Origin: a virus
Lineage: Duplodnaviria > Heunggongvirae > Uroviricota > Caudoviricetes
Virus record (IMG/VR): IMGVR_UViG_2778261182_000005
DNA: 7,543 nt
Reading direction: 5' to 3' (one strand)
A program made the translations under genes and the position numbers. Positions 1 to 6,883 of the stretch are shown piece by piece (within the stretch, counting starts at the first letter, position 1; the number at the start of each line of letters is the position of its first letter). Below the pieces are notes generated by a model, which worked only from the letters and a program-made list of their open reading frames with translations, searched no databases and was not told where the DNA came from.

Positions 1-61
<61 letters not shown>

Positions 62-142: not shown

Positions 143-218
143 TGGTGGCCCTTGCTGGATTTGAACCAGCGACCTGGCGATTATGAGTCGCTCGCTCTCA
201 CCACTGAGCTAAAGGGCC
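143..218 (-). tRNA. tRNA with CAU anticodon, tRNA-Ile2 (lysidine type, ileX/ileZ-like) rather than elongator Met
   Basis: Reverse complement is GGCCCTTTAGCTCAGTGGTGAGAGCGAGCGACTCATAATCGCCAGGTCGCTGGTTCAAATCCAGCAAGGGCCACCA, 76 nt with a canonical cloverleaf and encoded CCA. Anticodon loop is ACTCATAAT. Near-identical in layout to E. coli ileX from memory. Confidence 0.85.
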
Positions 219-3931: not shown

Positions 3932-4351
3932 TTAAGCTGAGCCCGGCGAATACCAGGGGAAATAAATATCGCTTAACGACGTGTGTTTGAGAACAGAGTC
4001 CACCGCCAATTTTAACGTCAACGACATGAAATTCTCAAAATACCATGAATTTTTCACAAAGAATTTTTCATCGATCAACTCTCCATTCATGATATCAAAG
4101 TCCGTAATCAGCTCCATCTTTAGCTCAAAAGAGGGTTCTTCATCCTCGGCAAGCCCCCCATCTCTATCGGGATACCCTTTTATCGATGGCGAAAACCCAA
4201 TCCGGAACCAACAGGTACCATCATCATCACGCCCCGAAGAAAATTTAACTTCCTCGATCGAGACCTTAAAAAAACCTCCATCATCACTAGTGTTATCCTT
4301 GAAACTACTGGAAACAATATCGAAACCAGCATACTTAATATTTTGTAACAT
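3932..4351 (-). CDS. Acidic hypothetical protein (139 aa from the coupled ATG; 144 aa from ATG 4366), third gene of the hicAB cassette
   Basis: ATG at 4351-4349 overlaps the hicB TGA (4353-4351) as TGATG. Strongly acidic (many D/E, few K/R) with one Cys. A sampled stretch (4021-4080) is about 28 percent GC. No family recognised. Confidence 0.6.
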   Translation of the reverse strand: MLQNIKYAGFDIVSSSFKDNTSDDGGFFKVSIEEVKFSSGRDDDGTCWFRIGFSPSIKGYPDRDGGLAEDEEPSFELKMELITDFDIMNGELIDEKFFVKNSWYFENFMSLTLKLAVDSVLKHTSLSDIYFPWYSPGSA

Positions 4352-4827
4352 CAGTGACGCATCCATCGCTCACCAGCCTCTTTCTTTTTTGTTCTTGCTG
4401 AAGGGGAAATGACGTAACCAAAAGAGAATGCTTTTTCCCAAACGAGCGTATCTGCCGTTTCTTCGCTTTCCGAATGAGAATAAACTTCTTTTTTGTCTGC
4501 AATCTTTTCTTCGATAGCTTTACGCACATAATCATTAAGCGTCGTCTTATCCGCCATTGCAGCCAAAAACGCTTTCTTATGAAGATCGCGACCAATTCTG
4601 ATGTTAAAAGTACCACTCATTGGTTTATCAGGAGATTTCCCTAACTGTTTGCATGTGTCGAGATAATCTGTAACAGCTTCTTCAAAAGCCGCCCTTAACC
4701 CACCCAGTGTTTCCGCTTCGTAGGTTACGACATCGTTTACGCACTGAATTTTCCCATGAAGTATGTTATCTTCAAGTGAAACCTCAATGCTGCCAAAATA
4801 ACCTTTATAACTCAGCACATTACTCAT
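4351..4827 (-). CDS. hicB: HicB-family antitoxin (UPF0150/RNase H-like N-domain plus RHH DNA-binding domain) with a roughly 45-aa C-terminal extension
   Basis: The N-terminus MSNVLSYKGYFGSIEVSLEDNILHGKI...TYEAETLGGLRAAFEEAVTDYLDTCKQLGKSPDKPMSGTFNIRIGRDLHKKAFLAAMADKTTLNDYVRKAIEE matches the HicB-like antitoxin pattern. Start taken as ATG 4827 (MSNV..., 158 aa); the track's ATG at 4842 adds 5 residues. Overlaps the hicA stop. Confidence 0.8.
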   Translation of the reverse strand: MSNVLSYKGYFGSIEVSLEDNILHGKIQCVNDVVTYEAETLGGLRAAFEEAVTDYLDTCKQLGKSPDKPMSGTFNIRIGRDLHKKAFLAAMADKTTLNDYVRKAIEEKIADKKEVYSHSESEETADTLVWEKAFSFGYVISPSARTKKKEAGERWMRH

Positions 4828-5068
4828 AACTATCAATCTCATCCAAAAGATTTTTCACTTCTTTAAGCACATATCCTTTAACAATATTGCCAGGATGTGG
4901 GCAATGAAAAGCCACAAGCCTTCCATTAGCATTGGTAAATTTCCTTCTTGAGCCTGAACCGGTAAGCATTTCGAAACCATAATGCCCAAGCAACGTCACG
5001 AGTTCATCCCATGTAAAATCCTTTGGAAGCTGATTCAGACGCCACCTCAACTTCTCTTTTTTGCTCAT
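4820..5068 (-). CDS. hicA: HicA-family toxin (YcfA-like mRNA interferase), 82 aa
   Basis: FTWDELVTLLGHYGFEMLTGSGSRRKFTNANGRLVAFHCPHPGNIVKGYVLKEVKNLL fits the HicA pattern (ELxxLL...G...GS..F....R...H.PH.G). Located upstream of hicB in the toxin-first order typical of hicAB. ATG at 5068 with a G-rich SD (GGGGGAAGGG) upstream. Confidence 0.85.
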   Translation of the reverse strand: MSKKEKLRWRLNQLPKDFTWDELVTLLGHYGFEMLTGSGSRRKFTNANGRLVAFHCPHPGNIVKGYVLKEVKNLLDEIDSYE

Positions 5069-5096: not shown

Positions 5097-5115
5097 GCAA
5101 CTAATAATCAGTTGC
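5097..5115. promoter_or_regulatory. Palindromic candidate operator in the hicA promoter region (GCAACT-aataatc-AGTTGC)
   Basis: Perfect 6-bp inverted arms with a 7-bp spacer, 29 to 47 bp upstream of the hicA ATG. It overlaps a possible -10 (GATTAT on the minus strand, plus 5104-5109) with TTTATC 17 bp further upstream. Confidence 0.35.
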
Positions 5116-5296
5116 AAACTCAGCGCGATAAAGAAGCATAAGAATCCTGCACCTAATTCATAACTACAGAAAACGCGTGCGAGCATGAAAATGCTACAAT
5201 AATGTTAAAACCACTTGCCAGTAAGGTTAAGTGCGGGTGCGTTGAGGATGCCTGACACATCAGAGGTGGCGAGGGATTTCTCCCCCGCCGGGTCTC

Positions 5297-5452
5297 TTAC
5301 TCCTCAGGTTCGTAAGCTGTGAAGACAGCGACCTCCGTCTGGCCGGTTCGGATTCGTACCTCGCAGAGGTCTTTCCTCGTTACCAGTGCCGTCACTATGA
5401 CGGTTAAACAGATGACGATCAGGGCGATTAACATCGCCTTTTGCTGCTTCAT
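5297..5452 (-). CDS. hokD: Hok/Gef-family type I toxin (51 aa membrane peptide), HokD/RelF-like
   Basis: Hand translation gives MKQQKAMLIALIVICLTVIVTALVTRKDLCEVRIRTGQTEVAVFTAYEPEE, matching Hok family and HokD/RelF as recalled. SD AAGGAG lies 8 nt upstream of the ATG. Not in the ORF track because it is under 60 aa. Confidence 0.9.
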   Translation of the reverse strand: MKQQKAMLIALIVICLTVIVTALVTRKDLCEVRIRTGQTEVAVFTAYEPEE

Positions 5453-5508
5453 AGCCTGCTTCTCCTTGACCTTTCGGTCCGTAAGAGGCTAATCTCTATG
5501 TGTCGCAT
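5449..5508 (-). CDS. mok-like leader ORF (19 codons) whose stop overlaps the hok start (ATGA)
   Basis: ATG at 5508-5506 (MRHIEISLLRTERSRRSRL) ends in TGA at 5451-5449, overlapping the hok ATG at 5452-5450. A GAGG SD lies upstream. The leader sequence is homologous to the plasmid R1 hok/mok leader as recalled (ATAGCCTCTTAC, AAGGAGAAG). Confidence 0.5.
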   Translation of the reverse strand: MRHIEISLLRTERSRRSRL

Positions 5509-5570
5509 AGATATGGCCTCAGATTAATGTTAAGCGTCTTGCCGGACGCGTAATGTTAACTGGGGCTTTT
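5500..5570 (+). ncRNA. Predicted Sok-like antisense RNA (approximate limits) complementary to the mok translation initiation region
   Basis: Inferred from hok/sok architecture. A plus-strand TTGACC (5466-5471) with a weak -10 (5489-5495) would start transcription just before the mok start and SD complement. A small hairpin GCGTC-ttgccg-GACGC lies at 5534-5549. The ends are not determined. Confidence 0.3.
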
Positions 5571-5626
5571 CTCTATCTGCCGTTGGTGTTCATGCCCGAG
5601 GCAGATAGCCTCAAGCACCCGCAGCA

Positions 5627-5654
5627 ATTCTACTTAACTCTCCTTTTCCCGCAA
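5627..5654 (-). promoter_or_regulatory. Putative hok mRNA promoter
   Basis: Minus strand reads TTGCGG - 16 nt - TAGAAT (plus 5627-5632), placing +1 near 5617-5620. That makes the mRNA 5' end GCGGGTGCTTGAGGCT, resembling the R1 hok mRNA 5' end (GGCGCTTGAGGCT) as recalled, with a leader of about 168 nt before hok. Confidence 0.35.
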
Positions 5655-5741
5655 ACCGTTTTTATCCCCATCGGCAAATCGAATACACCACCAGCGCCAC
5701 CGCCATCGCAATTCCTACCGTTGTGAATGCTTCAGGCCAGG

Positions 5742-6650
5742 TCATCGTAAAATATCCTCCACGCTTGTCAGTCCGTTTCGCTCCAGGTAGTCCATCGCCT
5801 TATCAGGCAAGATACTTAATCTATTGGCGTACTTTAAGGAGTGGGCCAGTCGCTTGACCCACATTGTTAATTCGCTAACCTGGTTACCAGATACTGGTGA
5901 GTTGTCGGTTTTACCATGGCGGGCGGCGTAGTCGGCGCTCCATCCCTTCTCCTCCTGCGGCGGTTCAGGCAACGCTTCCAGTGAAGCTTTCACAAAACAC
6001 GCCGCCTGAACTATAACGCCATGAATCCAACGCAAATCAGCATCGCGATCTTTCTTTTTCATCTTCTCGCCACTTAAAGCCTGGCTTATGTGGCTGCGTA
6101 CCAGGTCTTCATGTAACTCCTTCGCATCCTCAATGGTGAAACCACCAGGCAGAAGAACCGAAGTTACCGGAGAGTTGGTTGACGTTTCCGCGATTCCCCG
6201 AAAATTGTTGGTTGACGAATTCTTGTTTTCCCGAAAATTTCCAGCCTGAAGCATGGCTTCGCGGCAATCGTTCCATCCTTCAGCATAATCACTATGCGCA
6301 AGAGGCCAACCTCTTATGTATTCACGCGGCAACTTATCAGGCACTACCATCGCTGGCGGCGCTGCGTAAAGCGGTGTTATTTCTGCCCGAAAGTCACCTA
6401 TTTCATGCAGTCGCACCCAGCGTTCGACTTCTGCTTTGTCAGAATACATAGTGGTGAACGTATTATATTTATTGTCAATTTGCGTGAAGGTTGCCTTCCA
6501 CGCCACTGGCTCTGCTTCCAGTGACGCCAGTGCGATACGAAACACATTGGCAAGCAGGCTGTCTGAAGATTGGTTATCGTGCGCCGGGTCGCTCAGGAAA
6601 CCAGTGATGAATGATTTAATCTCCGCGTTTTCTCTGGTAATAGTGGTCAT
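5742..6650 (-). CDS. Hypothetical phage protein (302 aa), two apparent domains joined by a low-complexity linker
   Basis: ATG at 6650 with SD AAGGA at 8-nt spacing (MTTITRENAEIK...). The track's longer version starts at TTG 6740 without a good SD. No family recognised. It occupies the position upstream of hok that relBE holds in E. coli K-12 Qin. Confidence 0.65.
   Translation of the reverse strand: MTTITRENAEIKSFITGFLSDPAHDNQSSDSLLANVFRIALASLEAEPVAWKATFTQIDNKYNTFTTMYSDKAEVERWVRLHEIGDFRAEITPLYAAPPAMVVPDKLPREYIRGWPLAHSDYAEGWNDCREAMLQAGNFRENKNSSTNNFRGIAETSTNSPVTSVLLPGGFTIEDAKELHEDLVRSHISQALSGEKMKKKDRDADLRWIHGVIVQAACFVKASLEALPEPPQEEKGWSADYAARHGKTDNSPVSGNQVSELTMWVKRLAHSLKYANRLSILPDKAMDYLERNGLTSVEDILR
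6174..6239. repeat. Tandem direct repeat, 2 x 33 bp, imperfect, inside the 302-aa CDS
   Basis: Unit 1 is gttggttgacgtttccgcgattccccgaaaatt and unit 2 is gttggttgacgaattcttgttttcccgaaaatt. The first 11 and last 9 nt are identical. It encodes the repeated NFR...STN linker motif. Confidence 0.6.
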
Positions 6651-6736
6651 ATCAGCTTTCCTTATATGGGTTGATTTTGTTGTGCAGTGTGTTGAACGAC
6701 GCCCATACCACGTCGTTATACAATTCAATAACTGGC

Positions 6737-6883
6737 TCAATTATTTTCCCGATTGCCCAGACAAAAATTAGCGGGGATATCGGCATCAGCAGCACTTCCA
6801 CCACGTAACTCTGCATAGTCCATTAACAGTTCATGCCATTCTTTAAAACTGACGTTGTATTTAGTTGAACCAAAATCAGCCAT
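6737..6883 (-). CDS. Small acidic hypothetical protein (48 aa)
   Basis: ATG at 6883 preceded by GAGGAGG at about 7-nt spacing. Hand translation gives MADFGSTKYNVSFKEWHELLMDYAELRGGSAADADIPANFCLGNRENN with TGA at 6739-6737. Below the ORF track's size cutoff. Confidence 0.5.
   Translation of the reverse strand: MADFGSTKYNVSFKEWHELLMDYAELRGGSAADADIPANFCLGNRENN

What the first reader, a model, noticed from the sequence alone, without database searches (positions are those of the whole stretch)
5221..5660. Complete hok/sok-type type I toxin locus with a truncated mok, missed by the ORF track
A 51-aa Hok toxin is preceded by a leader of about 168 nt homologous to the plasmid R1 hok leader as recalled. 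The mok-like frame is only 19 codons and ends in a TGA overlapping the hok ATG, suggesting termination-reinitiation coupling rather than the long overlapping mok of R1. The 5' end (plus 5609-5622) and 3' end (plus 5233-5247) of the predicted mRNA are complementary (GCGGGTGCTTGAGG against CCTCAACGCACCCGC), like the fold-back inhibition element. There is also a 9-bp perfect inverted repeat in the leader (5573-5581 and 5600-5608) and a GC hairpin 7 nt after the hok stop (5268-5289). Together these imply a functional, regulated toxin sitting back-to-back with the hicAB module.
Basis: partly seen in the sequence, partly recalled or inferred. Interest (0 to 1): 0.5.

Follow-up and report, generated by a model that had tools for sequence, protein, structure and literature searches.

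The report
Prophage hok/sok toxin locus, short mok
This is an ordinary, complete hok/sok toxin-antitoxin module in a lambda-like prophage; its short 19-codon "mok" leader reading frame is a common natural allele (about one in seven complete E. coli genomes) that should still switch the toxin on.

Summary
[quoted passage not shown] Its Hok is 51 aa, matches Pfam HOK_GEF and is identical to E. coli K-12 HokD. The 168-nt leader scores 101 bits on Rfam RF01794. The 5' tac box pairs with the 3' fbi box, the mok and hok Shine-Dalgarno sites are sequestered, and a plus-strand Sok-like hairpin with a U-tail lies at about 5502-5575. The locus is 93% identical to the annotated, experimentally validated mokW/hokW/sokW of phage 933W/Sp5.

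The "truncated mok" is real. Its ATG (5508) is homologous to the mokW ATG, but indels put it 56 nt upstream of hok instead of 57, so it stops at the UGA in AUGA. This is not a private lesion. The identical 86-nt segment occurs in about 777 complete E. coli records and in 17 of 117 phage contigs. The -56 register also arose separately in hokC loci of E. ruysiae and E. whittamii. Across the family, mok starts at -56, -57 or -58, so all three registers occur. R1 mutagenesis shows that only the first 19 mok codons need translating, so coupling is expected to work, although this is untested. hicAB lies downstream in tandem, not back-to-back. The locus is a known system of low novelty.

The parts
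5650..5655 (-). hok promoter, putative -35 (TTTGCG)
   Evidence: Read from the sequence. It lies 17 nt upstream of the -10. It matches only 3 of 6 consensus positions, so the strict consensus scan did not report it. Its position relative to +1 is as in the 933W alignment. Inferred.
5627..5632 (-). hok promoter, putative -10 (TAGAAT, 5 of 6)
   Evidence: It lies 6-7 nt upstream of the first base of the Rfam match at 5620. Inferred.
5225..5620 (-). Predicted full-length hok mRNA (about 396 nt). The 5' end is set by the start of the Rfam model. The 3' end is approximate, placed where conservation with relatives ends.
   Evidence: Rfam model position 1 aligns to 5620. Homology with E. coli and phage relatives ends at about 5225. 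MFE -161.7 kcal/mol, z = -6.9, with the 5' and 3' ends paired. No canonical terminator was found.
5609..5622 (-). tac (translational activator) box at the mRNA 5' end, GCGGGTGCTTGAGG
   Evidence: It pairs with fbi in the full-length fold and with ucb in the 3'-trimmed fold. It is conserved in the alignment with the R1-type, hokC and Photorhabdus loci.
5573..5608 (-). tac stem-loop formed by the perfect 9-bp inverted repeat (5608..5600 / 5581..5573)
   Evidence: It is paired in both folds and corresponds to the long helix of the Rfam model.
5562..5566 (-). ucb (upstream complementary box), GCCCC, the anti-SD for mok
   Evidence: In the full-length MFE structure it pairs with the mok SD region. 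In the trimmed RNA it pairs with tac. AGCCCC is conserved in five of the six loci of alignment A2; the exception is the leaderless K-12 hokD.
5517..5520 (-). mok Shine-Dalgarno (GAGG), 8 nt upstream of the mok ATG
   Evidence: GAGGC is conserved across the family. In R1 the homologous GAGG is the mok SD (PMC9841398).
5449..5508 (-). Short mok leader ORF: ATG 5508, 19 sense codons, UGA 5451..5449 overlapping the hok AUG
   Evidence: The ATG is homologous to the annotated mokW ATG of 933W. A 2-nt deletion plus a 1-nt insertion shift the frame.
5481..5490 (-). AGCCTCTTAC box inside mok, which pairs with and sequesters the hok SD
   Evidence: Local fold, -15.6 kcal/mol, and the full-length fold. 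The box is nearly invariant across genera.
5462..5467 (-). hok Shine-Dalgarno (AAGGAG)
   Evidence: Conserved in all loci.
5297..5452 (-). hok toxin gene (51 aa plus stop)
   Evidence: ORF list. Pfam PF01848 HOK_GEF, 82.9 bits. Identical to K-12 HokD. PGAP names the gene hokD in hundreds of genomes.
5268..5289 (-). GC-rich stem-loop after the hok stop. By homology with R1 it is the protective 3' hairpin of the processed, active mRNA.
   Evidence: It is present in both folds. 933W keeps the stem with changed bases. Its role in R1 is described in PMC9841398. The role here is inferred.
5233..5247 (-). fbi (fold-back inhibition) box, CCTCAACGCACCCGC
   Evidence: Duplex with tac -21.5 kcal/mol, 49 nt after the hok stop. 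The same position and compensatory changes are seen in other genera.
5466..5495 (+). Putative Sok promoter: -35 TTGACC (5466-5471), 18-nt spacer, -10 TAATCT (5490-5495)
   Evidence: Read from the sequence. It occupies the positions homologous to the hexamers in the R1-type and 933W loci. The -10 matches only 3 of 6, so the strict scan did not report it. Inferred.
5502..5575 (+). Predicted Sok antisense RNA: 5' tail over the mok ATG, hairpin 5515-5567, U-tract 5568-5575. It is complementary to the mok SD and start codon.
   Evidence: Projection of the annotated sokW. Fold -34.3 kcal/mol, z = -5.5. sokW RNA (71 nt) was detected on northern blots in the 93%-identical Sp5 locus (PMC8621323).

Best explanation
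The minus strand of about 5225-5660 is an intact hok/sok-family type I toxin-antitoxin module of the prophage hokD/hokW subgroup. It sits in the nin-like region of a lambdoid prophage, upstream of hicAB, DUF968, RusA, Q and a tRNA cluster.

Proposed mechanism, by homology with R1 hok/sok and Sp5 hokW/sokW:
1. A weak constitutive promoter makes a stable mRNA of about 396 nt.
2. In this full-length RNA the 5' tac box pairs with the 3' fbi box, and the GCCCC ucb box covers the mok Shine-Dalgarno. Neither ribosomes nor Sok can bind.
3. Slow 3' trimming back to the GC hairpin at 5289-5268 removes fbi. tac then re-pairs with ucb and the mok SD is exposed.
4. While the prophage is present, the unstable plus-strand Sok RNA (about 5502-5575) pairs across the mok SD and AUG, blocks mok translation and triggers RNase III decay.
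5. When Sok disappears, ribosomes translate the 19-codon mok. This melts the AGCCUCUUAC/AAGGAG hairpin that hides the hok SD. The ribosomes terminate at the UGA of AUGA, and Hok is translated either by reinitiation or by fresh initiation on the now-open site.
6. Hok inserts into the inner membrane and kills or lyses the cell.

The short mok is a functional natural allele. Only delivery of ribosomes across the 19 codons upstream of hok matters; the Mok peptide and its register do not.

Shown here: all sequence elements, their homology, the predicted folds and the population data. Inferred: transcription, 3' processing, coupling and toxicity.
For: Family membership:
- Rfam RF01794, 101.3 bits.
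- Pfam HOK_GEF, E = 1.2e-23.
- 93% identity to 933W, with annotated mokW/hokW/sokW.
- Hok identical to K-12 HokD.

Structure switch:
- The full-length fold pairs tac with fbi and ucb with the mok SD, z = -6.9.
- The trimmed fold pairs tac with ucb, and the mok SD is unpaired in the centroid.
- tac/fbi show compensatory changes across genera: U-A to C-G in Photorhabdus and Pantoea; GAGG/CCUC to GAGA/UCUC and to GAAG/CUUC. The fbi box always lies 45-56 nt after the stop.

Sok:
- Hairpin plus U-tract, z = -5.5.
- Promoter-like hexamers at R1-homologous positions.
- sokW RNA and hokW mRNA were detected, and the toxin/antitoxin activity was demonstrated, for the Sp5 homologue (PMC8621323).

Short mok is tolerated:
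- R1 stop codons after the hok start have no effect, and only the first 19 mok codons are needed (PMC9841398).
- The mok ATG sits at -56, -57 or -58 in every intact locus surveyed, giving three registers.
- The -56 register recurs in hokC-type loci of E. ruysiae and E. whittamii.
- The identical allele is in about 777 E. coli records and 17 of 117 IMG/VR contigs. In 16 of those 17, hok is full length, with four Hok variants.
Against: - There is no expression or toxicity data for this allele.
- The strict sigma-70 and terminator scans found nothing in 5100-5760. The hok -35 and the Sok -10 each match only 3 of 6 positions, and no rho-independent terminator follows fbi.
- Several chromosomal hok loci (hokA, hokB, hokC) were reported unable to mediate post-segregational killing (summarised in bioRxiv 10.1101/2025.08.07.668861).
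- All hokD-type -56 copies share one 84-nt haplotype, so their abundance could reflect phage spread rather than selection on mok.
- R1 mutagenesis did not test a stop placed exactly on the hok start codon.
Confidence: 0.8

Rival explanations
1. The locus belongs to the hok/sok family but is functionally crippled. The frameshift that shortens mok reduces or abolishes hok translation. The allele would then be a tolerated, attenuated relic that hitch-hikes on successful prophages.
For: - All hokD-type -56 copies in the IMG/VR sample share a single identical 84-nt haplotype, consistent with one mutational event spread by phage.
- Most relatives have a long mok: 97 of 117 at -57.
- Chromosomal hokA, hokB and hokC were reported inactive for post-segregational killing (bioRxiv 10.1101/2025.08.07.668861).
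- The promoter hexamers are weak and there is no canonical terminator.
Against: [quoted passage not shown]
- The short mok still crosses the whole hok SD and start region.
- The -56 register arose separately in hokC loci of two other Escherichia species that have intact hok and tac/fbi.
- hok is full length in 16 of the 17 -56 phage contigs, against 5 truncated among 97 at -57.
- All other regulatory elements are intact.
Confidence: 0.15
2. The short mok changes regulation rather than merely being tolerated. Obligatory termination at AUGA makes hok translation depend on reinitiation, which sets a different (probably lower, tighter) Hok output. It also abolishes the 70-aa Mok-Hok fusion protein that -57 alleles must produce. 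The allele would then be selected for a different toxin dose or timing during prophage induction.
For: - The -57 alleles encode an in-frame Mok-Hok fusion; the window allele cannot.
- The allele is frequent, in about 14% of complete E. coli genomes.
- The same indel event gives Sok a better -35 (TTGACC, against TTGCCT in 933W).
Against: - There are no quantitative data.
- The three registers are scattered across the family with no obvious link to context, which is the pattern expected if the register is neutral.
- R1 data suggest the Mok product is irrelevant (PMC9841398).
Confidence: 0.05

Closest known systems
mokW/hokW/sokW of Stx2 phage 933W / Sakai prophage Sp5 (AF125520; PMC8621323)
   Same: - 93% nucleotide identity over the whole module, including promoter region, tac, ucb, mok SD and ATG, hok SD, hok, 3' hairpin and fbi.
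- Lambdoid prophage setting.
- Sok position.
- The Sp5 locus is experimentally a type I TA system: sokW is 71 nt, and both RNAs were seen on northern blots.
   Different: - mokW starts 57 nt upstream of hokW and is a 70-codon in-frame fusion. Here the start is at -56, giving 19 codons and a stop at AUGA.
- The Hok C-terminus differs (TAYEPEE here, VDYESEK in 933W).
- The Sok -35 is TTGACC with an 18-nt spacer here, against TTGCCT with 17 nt in 933W.
hok/sok (parB) of plasmid R1, the paradigm
   Same: The architecture is the same, element for element: tac, tac stem, ucb, mok SD, a mok ATG about 57 nt before hok, the AGCCUCUUAC/AAGGAG hok-SD hairpin, hok, a 3' hairpin and fbi, plus a cis-antisense Sok over the mok start region. 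The 168-nt leader has the same length.
   Different: - Hok is a distant homologue. PMC8621323 gives 44% identity between HokW and R1 Hok.
- R1 mok is 70 codons, starts at -58 in the overlapping out-of-frame register and ends near the hok stop (PMC9841398 numbering).
- R1 is on a plasmid, this locus is in a prophage.
- An IncFII plasmid whose Hok is identical to R1 Hok has mok at -57.
hokD (relF) of the E. coli K-12 Qin prophage
   Same: The Hok protein is 100% identical. DNA identity is 99.6% from just upstream of the hok SD through fbi.
   Different: K-12 hokD has lost everything upstream of the hok SD (promoter, tac, ucb, mok, Sok), replaced by relBE. It keeps only an orphan fbi box. The window carries the complete version.
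hokC/mokC/sokC (gef) of Escherichia chromosomes
   Same: Same leader architecture and mok start position. E. ruysiae and E. whittamii hokC loci also have the -56, 19-codon, AUGA-terminated mok.
   Different: - The leader is about 20 nt shorter (tac at -150).
- Hok identity is about 80%.
- It sits at a fixed chromosomal site rather than in a prophage.
- E. coli mokC is an in-frame 69-codon fusion.

Membership tests
[quoted passage not shown] | Small hydrophobic Hok/Gef-family toxin ORF (about 50 aa) | tested here: met
   Pfam PF01848, 82.9 bits against a cutoff of 22, E = 1.2e-23. 51 aa, identical to K-12 HokD.
[quoted passage not shown] | Long structured 5' leader matching the family covariance model | tested here: met
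   Rfam RF01794, 101.3 bits against a gathering score of 59. Model positions 1-157 are all matched, on the hok-sense strand at 5620..5450.
[quoted passage not shown] | 5'-3' end pairing (tac/fbi) that locks the full-length mRNA | tested here: met
   12-bp duplex with one bulge, -21.5 kcal/mol. It is present in the MFE of the 396-nt RNA. Compensatory changes occur in Photorhabdus, Pantoea, Kluyvera-type and Citrobacter loci.
[quoted passage not shown] | mok SD sequestered by ucb in the full-length RNA and freed by tac/ucb pairing after 3' trimming | tested here: met
   In silico only. The full-length fold pairs GCCCC with the GAGG region. The fold of 5620..5262 forms the tac/ucb stem (nt 1-59), with the mok SD unpaired in the centroid.
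[quoted passage not shown] | Leader ORF (mok) with its own SD, starting about 57 nt before hok and translated across the hok SD | tested here: met
   GAGG, 8 nt, then ATG 5508. 19 codons cover the hok SD and end on the hok AUG. The ATG is homologous to the annotated mokW start.
[quoted passage not shown] | mok extends far into hok (about 70 codons), as in R1, 933W and mokC | tested here: not met
   It stops at 5451..5449. This is not a requirement for function in R1, where stops after the hok start have no effect (PMC9841398). The register also varies within the family, so I do not treat this feature as defining.
[quoted passage not shown] | cis-encoded antisense Sok RNA, with promoter and terminator hairpin, overlapping the mok translation start | tested here: inconclusive
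   A hairpin plus U-tract is at 5515-5575, z = -5.5. This coincides with the projected sokW annotation. The TTGACC-18-TAATCT hexamers lie at R1-homologous positions. However, the strict promoter and terminator scan reported nothing, and no transcript data are available.
[quoted passage not shown] | Hok toxicity, Sok-dependent repression, and 3' processing of the mRNA | not testable with these tools
   Shown for the 93%-identical hokW/sokW (PMC8621323) and for R1 (PMC9841398), but not for this allele.
hokD/hokW prophage subgroup | High nucleotide identity over the entire module, and a lambdoid prophage context | tested here: met
   93-98% identity to E. coli prophage, phage and plasmid loci that PGAP annotates as hokD. 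The neighbours are DUF968, RusA, antiterminator Q and tRNAs.

The most novel reading that the evidence does not exclude
mok may be a pure 'ribosome-delivery' upstream ORF. Its start position (56-58 nt before hok, always 19 codons upstream) would be under selection, while its reading register is free. Under this reading the family exists as three interchangeable natural forms: an in-frame Mok-Hok fusion, an R1-like overlapping frame, and a 19-codon ORF ending in AUGA. The window carries the third form, which is present in about 14% of complete E. coli genomes. It would act by termination-reinitiation and, unlike the common -57 form, would make no Mok-Hok fusion protein, possibly giving a different toxin dose. 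I found no accessible paper that tabulates this. The 2025 Hok survey explicitly skipped mok. I could not read Pedersen & Gerdes 1999 or Steif & Meyer 2012.
Probability: 0.45. Interest if true: 0.3.

Novelty: already known. Interest (0 to 1): 0.2.

Why it matters
For annotation, a complete, probably active type I toxin module lies here, and pipelines label only the hok CDS. The mok ORF, the Sok RNA and the mRNA boundaries can be added at the coordinates given. The locus is also the intact counterpart of the leaderless K-12 hokD.

For biology, the value is modest. The short-mok allele is a ready-made natural replicate of the R1 stop-codon experiments, and it occurs in well-known strains (ATCC 25922, an O104:H4 strain, O145:H28 RM12761). 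It could be used to ask whether termination-reinitiation at AUGA gives the same Hok output as read-through coupling. It could also show whether the Mok-Hok fusion made by -57 alleles has any role. Nothing here overturns the established model.

Tried and rejected
- **Strict promoter and terminator scan of 5100-5760:** no hits. The signals I report are weaker hexamers placed by homology.
- **Canonical in-frame mok:** The 933W alignment shows the ATG is the homologous mok start, shifted in register by indels, so I dropped that idea.
- **One-off frameshift or sequencing error:** rejected, because the identical 86-nt segment is in hundreds of complete genomes.
- **Terminator after fbi:** only a weak -5.8 kcal/mol hairpin followed by UUUU was found, so the 3' end of the primary transcript is not defined.
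- **Prior descriptions of short mok or of mok registers:** four full-text searches and six papers were read and none describes them. 'The hok mRNA family' (PMID 23324554) is not held, and Pedersen & Gerdes 1999 did not turn up in any of the full-text searches, so prior description cannot be excluded.
Full report
**1. Observation**

- A 51-aa ORF runs from 5452 to 5297 (MKQQKAMLIALIVICLTVIVTALVTRKDLCEVRIRTGQTEVAVFTAYEPEE).
- A second frame starts at ATG 5508, runs for 19 codons (MRHIEISLLRTERSRRSRL) and ends at TGA 5451..5449. This TGA shares two bases with the hok ATG (AUGA).
- GCGGGTGCTTGAGG (5622..5609) is complementary to CCTCAACGCACCCGC (5247..5233) apart from one bulged base.
- A perfect 9-bp inverted repeat lies at 5608..5600 and 5581..5573.
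- A GC-rich hairpin (5289..5268, one G.U pair, about -20 kcal/mol) begins 7 nt after the hok stop.

None of this is chance.
- The Rfam model RF01794 matches 5620..5450 end to end at 101.3 bits (gathering score 59, E = 9.7e-23).
- The ORF matches Pfam HOK_GEF at E = 1.2e-23.
- The 396-nt RNA folds 6.9 standard deviations better than shuffled versions.

**2. What it is**

The 481-nt region matches thousands of E. coli chromosomes, where NCBI's pipeline names the CDS hokD. It also matches 110 phage records and about 600 plasmids. Phage 933W carries the best-annotated relative, at 93% identity, with mokW, hokW and an antisense sokW RNA all annotated. The same locus in Sakai prophage Sp5 has been shown experimentally to be a type I toxin-antitoxin system. 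HokW is toxic, a 71-nt sokW RNA neutralises it, both RNAs are visible on northern blots, and the locus aids lysis and phage release after mitomycin C (PMC8621323).

The window's Hok is identical to K-12 HokD/RelF. K-12 hokD matches only from just upstream of the hok Shine-Dalgarno onward. Its leader is replaced by relBE, although it keeps an orphan fbi box. The window therefore holds the complete form of the locus that survives as a stump in K-12.

The surroundings are those of a lambdoid prophage. DUF968, RusA, antiterminator Q and tRNA genes lie downstream on the same strand. The same gene order is found in E. coli SK1144. hicA (5068..4820) and hicB (4842..4351) are real. They lie downstream of hok on the same strand, so they are in tandem rather than back-to-back. 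They belong to a block of about 40% GC set within flanks of about 52% GC.

**3. The mok frame**

In 933W, mokW begins 57 nt before hokW and is in frame with it, giving a 70-codon Mok-Hok fusion. The pairwise alignment shows that the window's ATG 5508 is the homologous start codon. A 2-nt deletion right after it and a 1-nt insertion (the T in AAAGGTCAAGG) place it 56 nt before hok.

I then asked whether this is a private lesion. It is not, for three reasons.

(a) In 46 loci from different species (analysed), every locus with an intact leader and a mok start codon has that ATG at -56, -57 or -58.
- At -57 the result is an in-frame fusion. This is the commonest form (hokC, hokW, Photorhabdus, Pantoea, Citrobacter).
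- At -58 the result is the R1-like overlapping frame (Kluyvera-type loci and several E. coli loci).
- At -56 the result is the 19-codon AUGA form. It occurs in the window and, separately, in hokC-type loci of E. ruysiae and E. whittamii.

(b) Of 117 usable IMG/VR phage contigs that share the hok start region, 17 carry exactly the window's haplotype, 97 are at -57 and 3 are at -58. hok is full length in 16 of the 17, with four different Hok variants; the exception is L079, for which only 212 nt of the module are held.

(c) The window's 86-nt mok segment occurs at 100% identity and full length in about 777 records from complete E. coli genomes. Carriers include ATCC 25922, an O104:H4 strain and O145:H28 RM12761.

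Even a plasmid whose Hok is identical to R1 Hok has mok at -57. R1 itself is at -58 by the numbering in PMC9841398. The mok register is therefore labile, while the start position (always 19 codons upstream of hok) is conserved.

**4. Mechanism**

R1 genetics explains why the register is free. Mutating the mok start codon, or introducing stops within the first 19 codons, abolishes Hok. Stops after the hok start have no effect, and the Mok peptide itself is irrelevant (PMC9841398, citing Thisted & Gerdes 1992). The window's mok is exactly those 19 codons.

The folds reproduce the R1 switch.
- In the full-length RNA (5620..5225), tac pairs with fbi, the GCCCC ucb box pairs with the mok SD region, and AGCCUCUUAC pairs with the hok SD.
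- With the 3' end trimmed to the GC hairpin (5620..5262), tac pairs with ucb instead, and the mok SD is unpaired in the centroid structure.
- tac/fbi pairing is supported by compensatory changes across genera, and fbi always lies 45-56 nt after the stop.

On the plus strand, the annotated sokW projects to about 5502-5570. That interval folds into a 53-nt hairpin (5515-5567) followed by UUUUCUCU (z = -5.5). It is complementary to the mok SD and AUG but not to the hok SD. Promoter-like hexamers sit at the positions homologous to the R1-type and 933W loci: TTGACC-18-TAATCT for Sok and TTTGCG-17-TAGAAT for hok. Both are too weak for the strict scan, which returned nothing. No canonical terminator follows fbi.

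The most likely working model is the standard hok/sok cycle. The one difference is that ribosomes translating mok terminate on the hok start codon, so Hok synthesis follows by reinitiation or by fresh initiation on the opened site. Transcription, processing, coupling and toxicity are inferred by homology and were not shown here.

**5. Rivals**

The main alternative is that the frameshift attenuates or silences hok and the allele is a hitch-hiking relic.
- In favour: all hokD-type -56 copies share a single haplotype, and some chromosomal hok loci are reported inactive (bioRxiv 10.1101/2025.08.07.668861).
- Against: the R1 data, the independent recurrence in hokC loci, and the intact hok and regulatory elements.

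I give this about 0.15. A second, more interesting alternative is that the AUGA form alters toxin dose or removes a Mok-Hok fusion that has its own role. There is no evidence for this beyond plausibility, and I give it about 0.05.

**6. Comparison, novelty and verdict**

The locus passes every testable membership criterion for the hok/sok family except "long overlapping mok". That feature is not functionally required in R1 and is not constant within the family. The Sok promoter is inconclusive on sequence alone.

The locus type is well known. It was annotated in 933W (GenBank AF125520), PGAP labels it hokD, and it has been characterised in Sp5. The identical allele sits in hundreds of public genomes. 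What I could not find in accessible literature is an explicit description of the three mok registers or of the 19-codon AUGA form. The 2025 Hok diversity survey states that it did not analyse mok. Two key older papers were not available.

The finding is a correct annotation of a known system rather than a discovery. Interest 0.2.

Noticed in passing
window 5662-5745 (-): A 27-codon hydrophobic small ORF (MTWPEAFTTVGIAMAVALVVYSICRWG). Its ATG overlaps the stop of the 332-aa ORF 5742..6740 (ATGA), and it ends 7 nt before the hok -35. The DNA is conserved upstream of hokW in 933W, where nothing is annotated. It could be a small membrane protein.
   Followed up: no
window 3932-5068 (-): hicA (82 aa), hicB (163 aa, overlapping hicA by 23 nt) and a 144-aa ORF with no Pfam match form a block of about 40% GC between flanks of about 52% GC. 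This looks like a moron-type insert between hok/sok and DUF968. The E. coli SK1144 prophage has the identical mok allele but no hicAB.
   Followed up: partly
window 1-61 and 143-218 (-): A tRNA with anticodon CAT lies at 143-218. ARAGORN calls it tRNA-Met; in the similarly organised E. coli SK1144 prophage, PGAP calls the first tRNA after Q tRNA-Ile, so it may be an ileZ-like lysidine tRNA (not checked by alignment). The 5' part of a second tRNA is cut off by the window edge. This is the usual lambdoid tRNA cluster downstream of Q.
   Followed up: no
window 5450-5620 (-): The Rfam family named 'sok antitoxin' (RF01794) matches the hok-mRNA sense strand from +1 to the hok AUG. The model therefore describes the hok leader, not the antisense RNA. 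A hit does not by itself give the strand or the ends of Sok.
   Followed up: partly
L176 (IncFII plasmid NZ_CP128973.1) 344-559: A plasmid locus whose Hok is 100% identical to R1 Hok has mok at -57, an in-frame fusion of 71 codons. R1 itself is at -58 by the numbering of PMC9841398. So the mok register differs even between near-identical plasmid loci.
   Followed up: partly
L002 (E. coli K-12-type hokD) and L027 (Kluyvera sp.): The leaderless K-12 hokD keeps an orphan fbi box with no tac partner. A Kluyvera hok locus has nearly the same upstream junction sequence as the one that follows relE in K-12, which suggests the truncated relBE-hokD arrangement has moved between genera.
   Followed up: no
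L030 (Kluyvera ascorbata) about 1440-1500: This hok locus has an intact leader, hok SD and hok, but no mok start codon at the conserved position (AAATACC instead of ATG). It is a candidate for a naturally mok-less, possibly silent locus.
   Followed up: no
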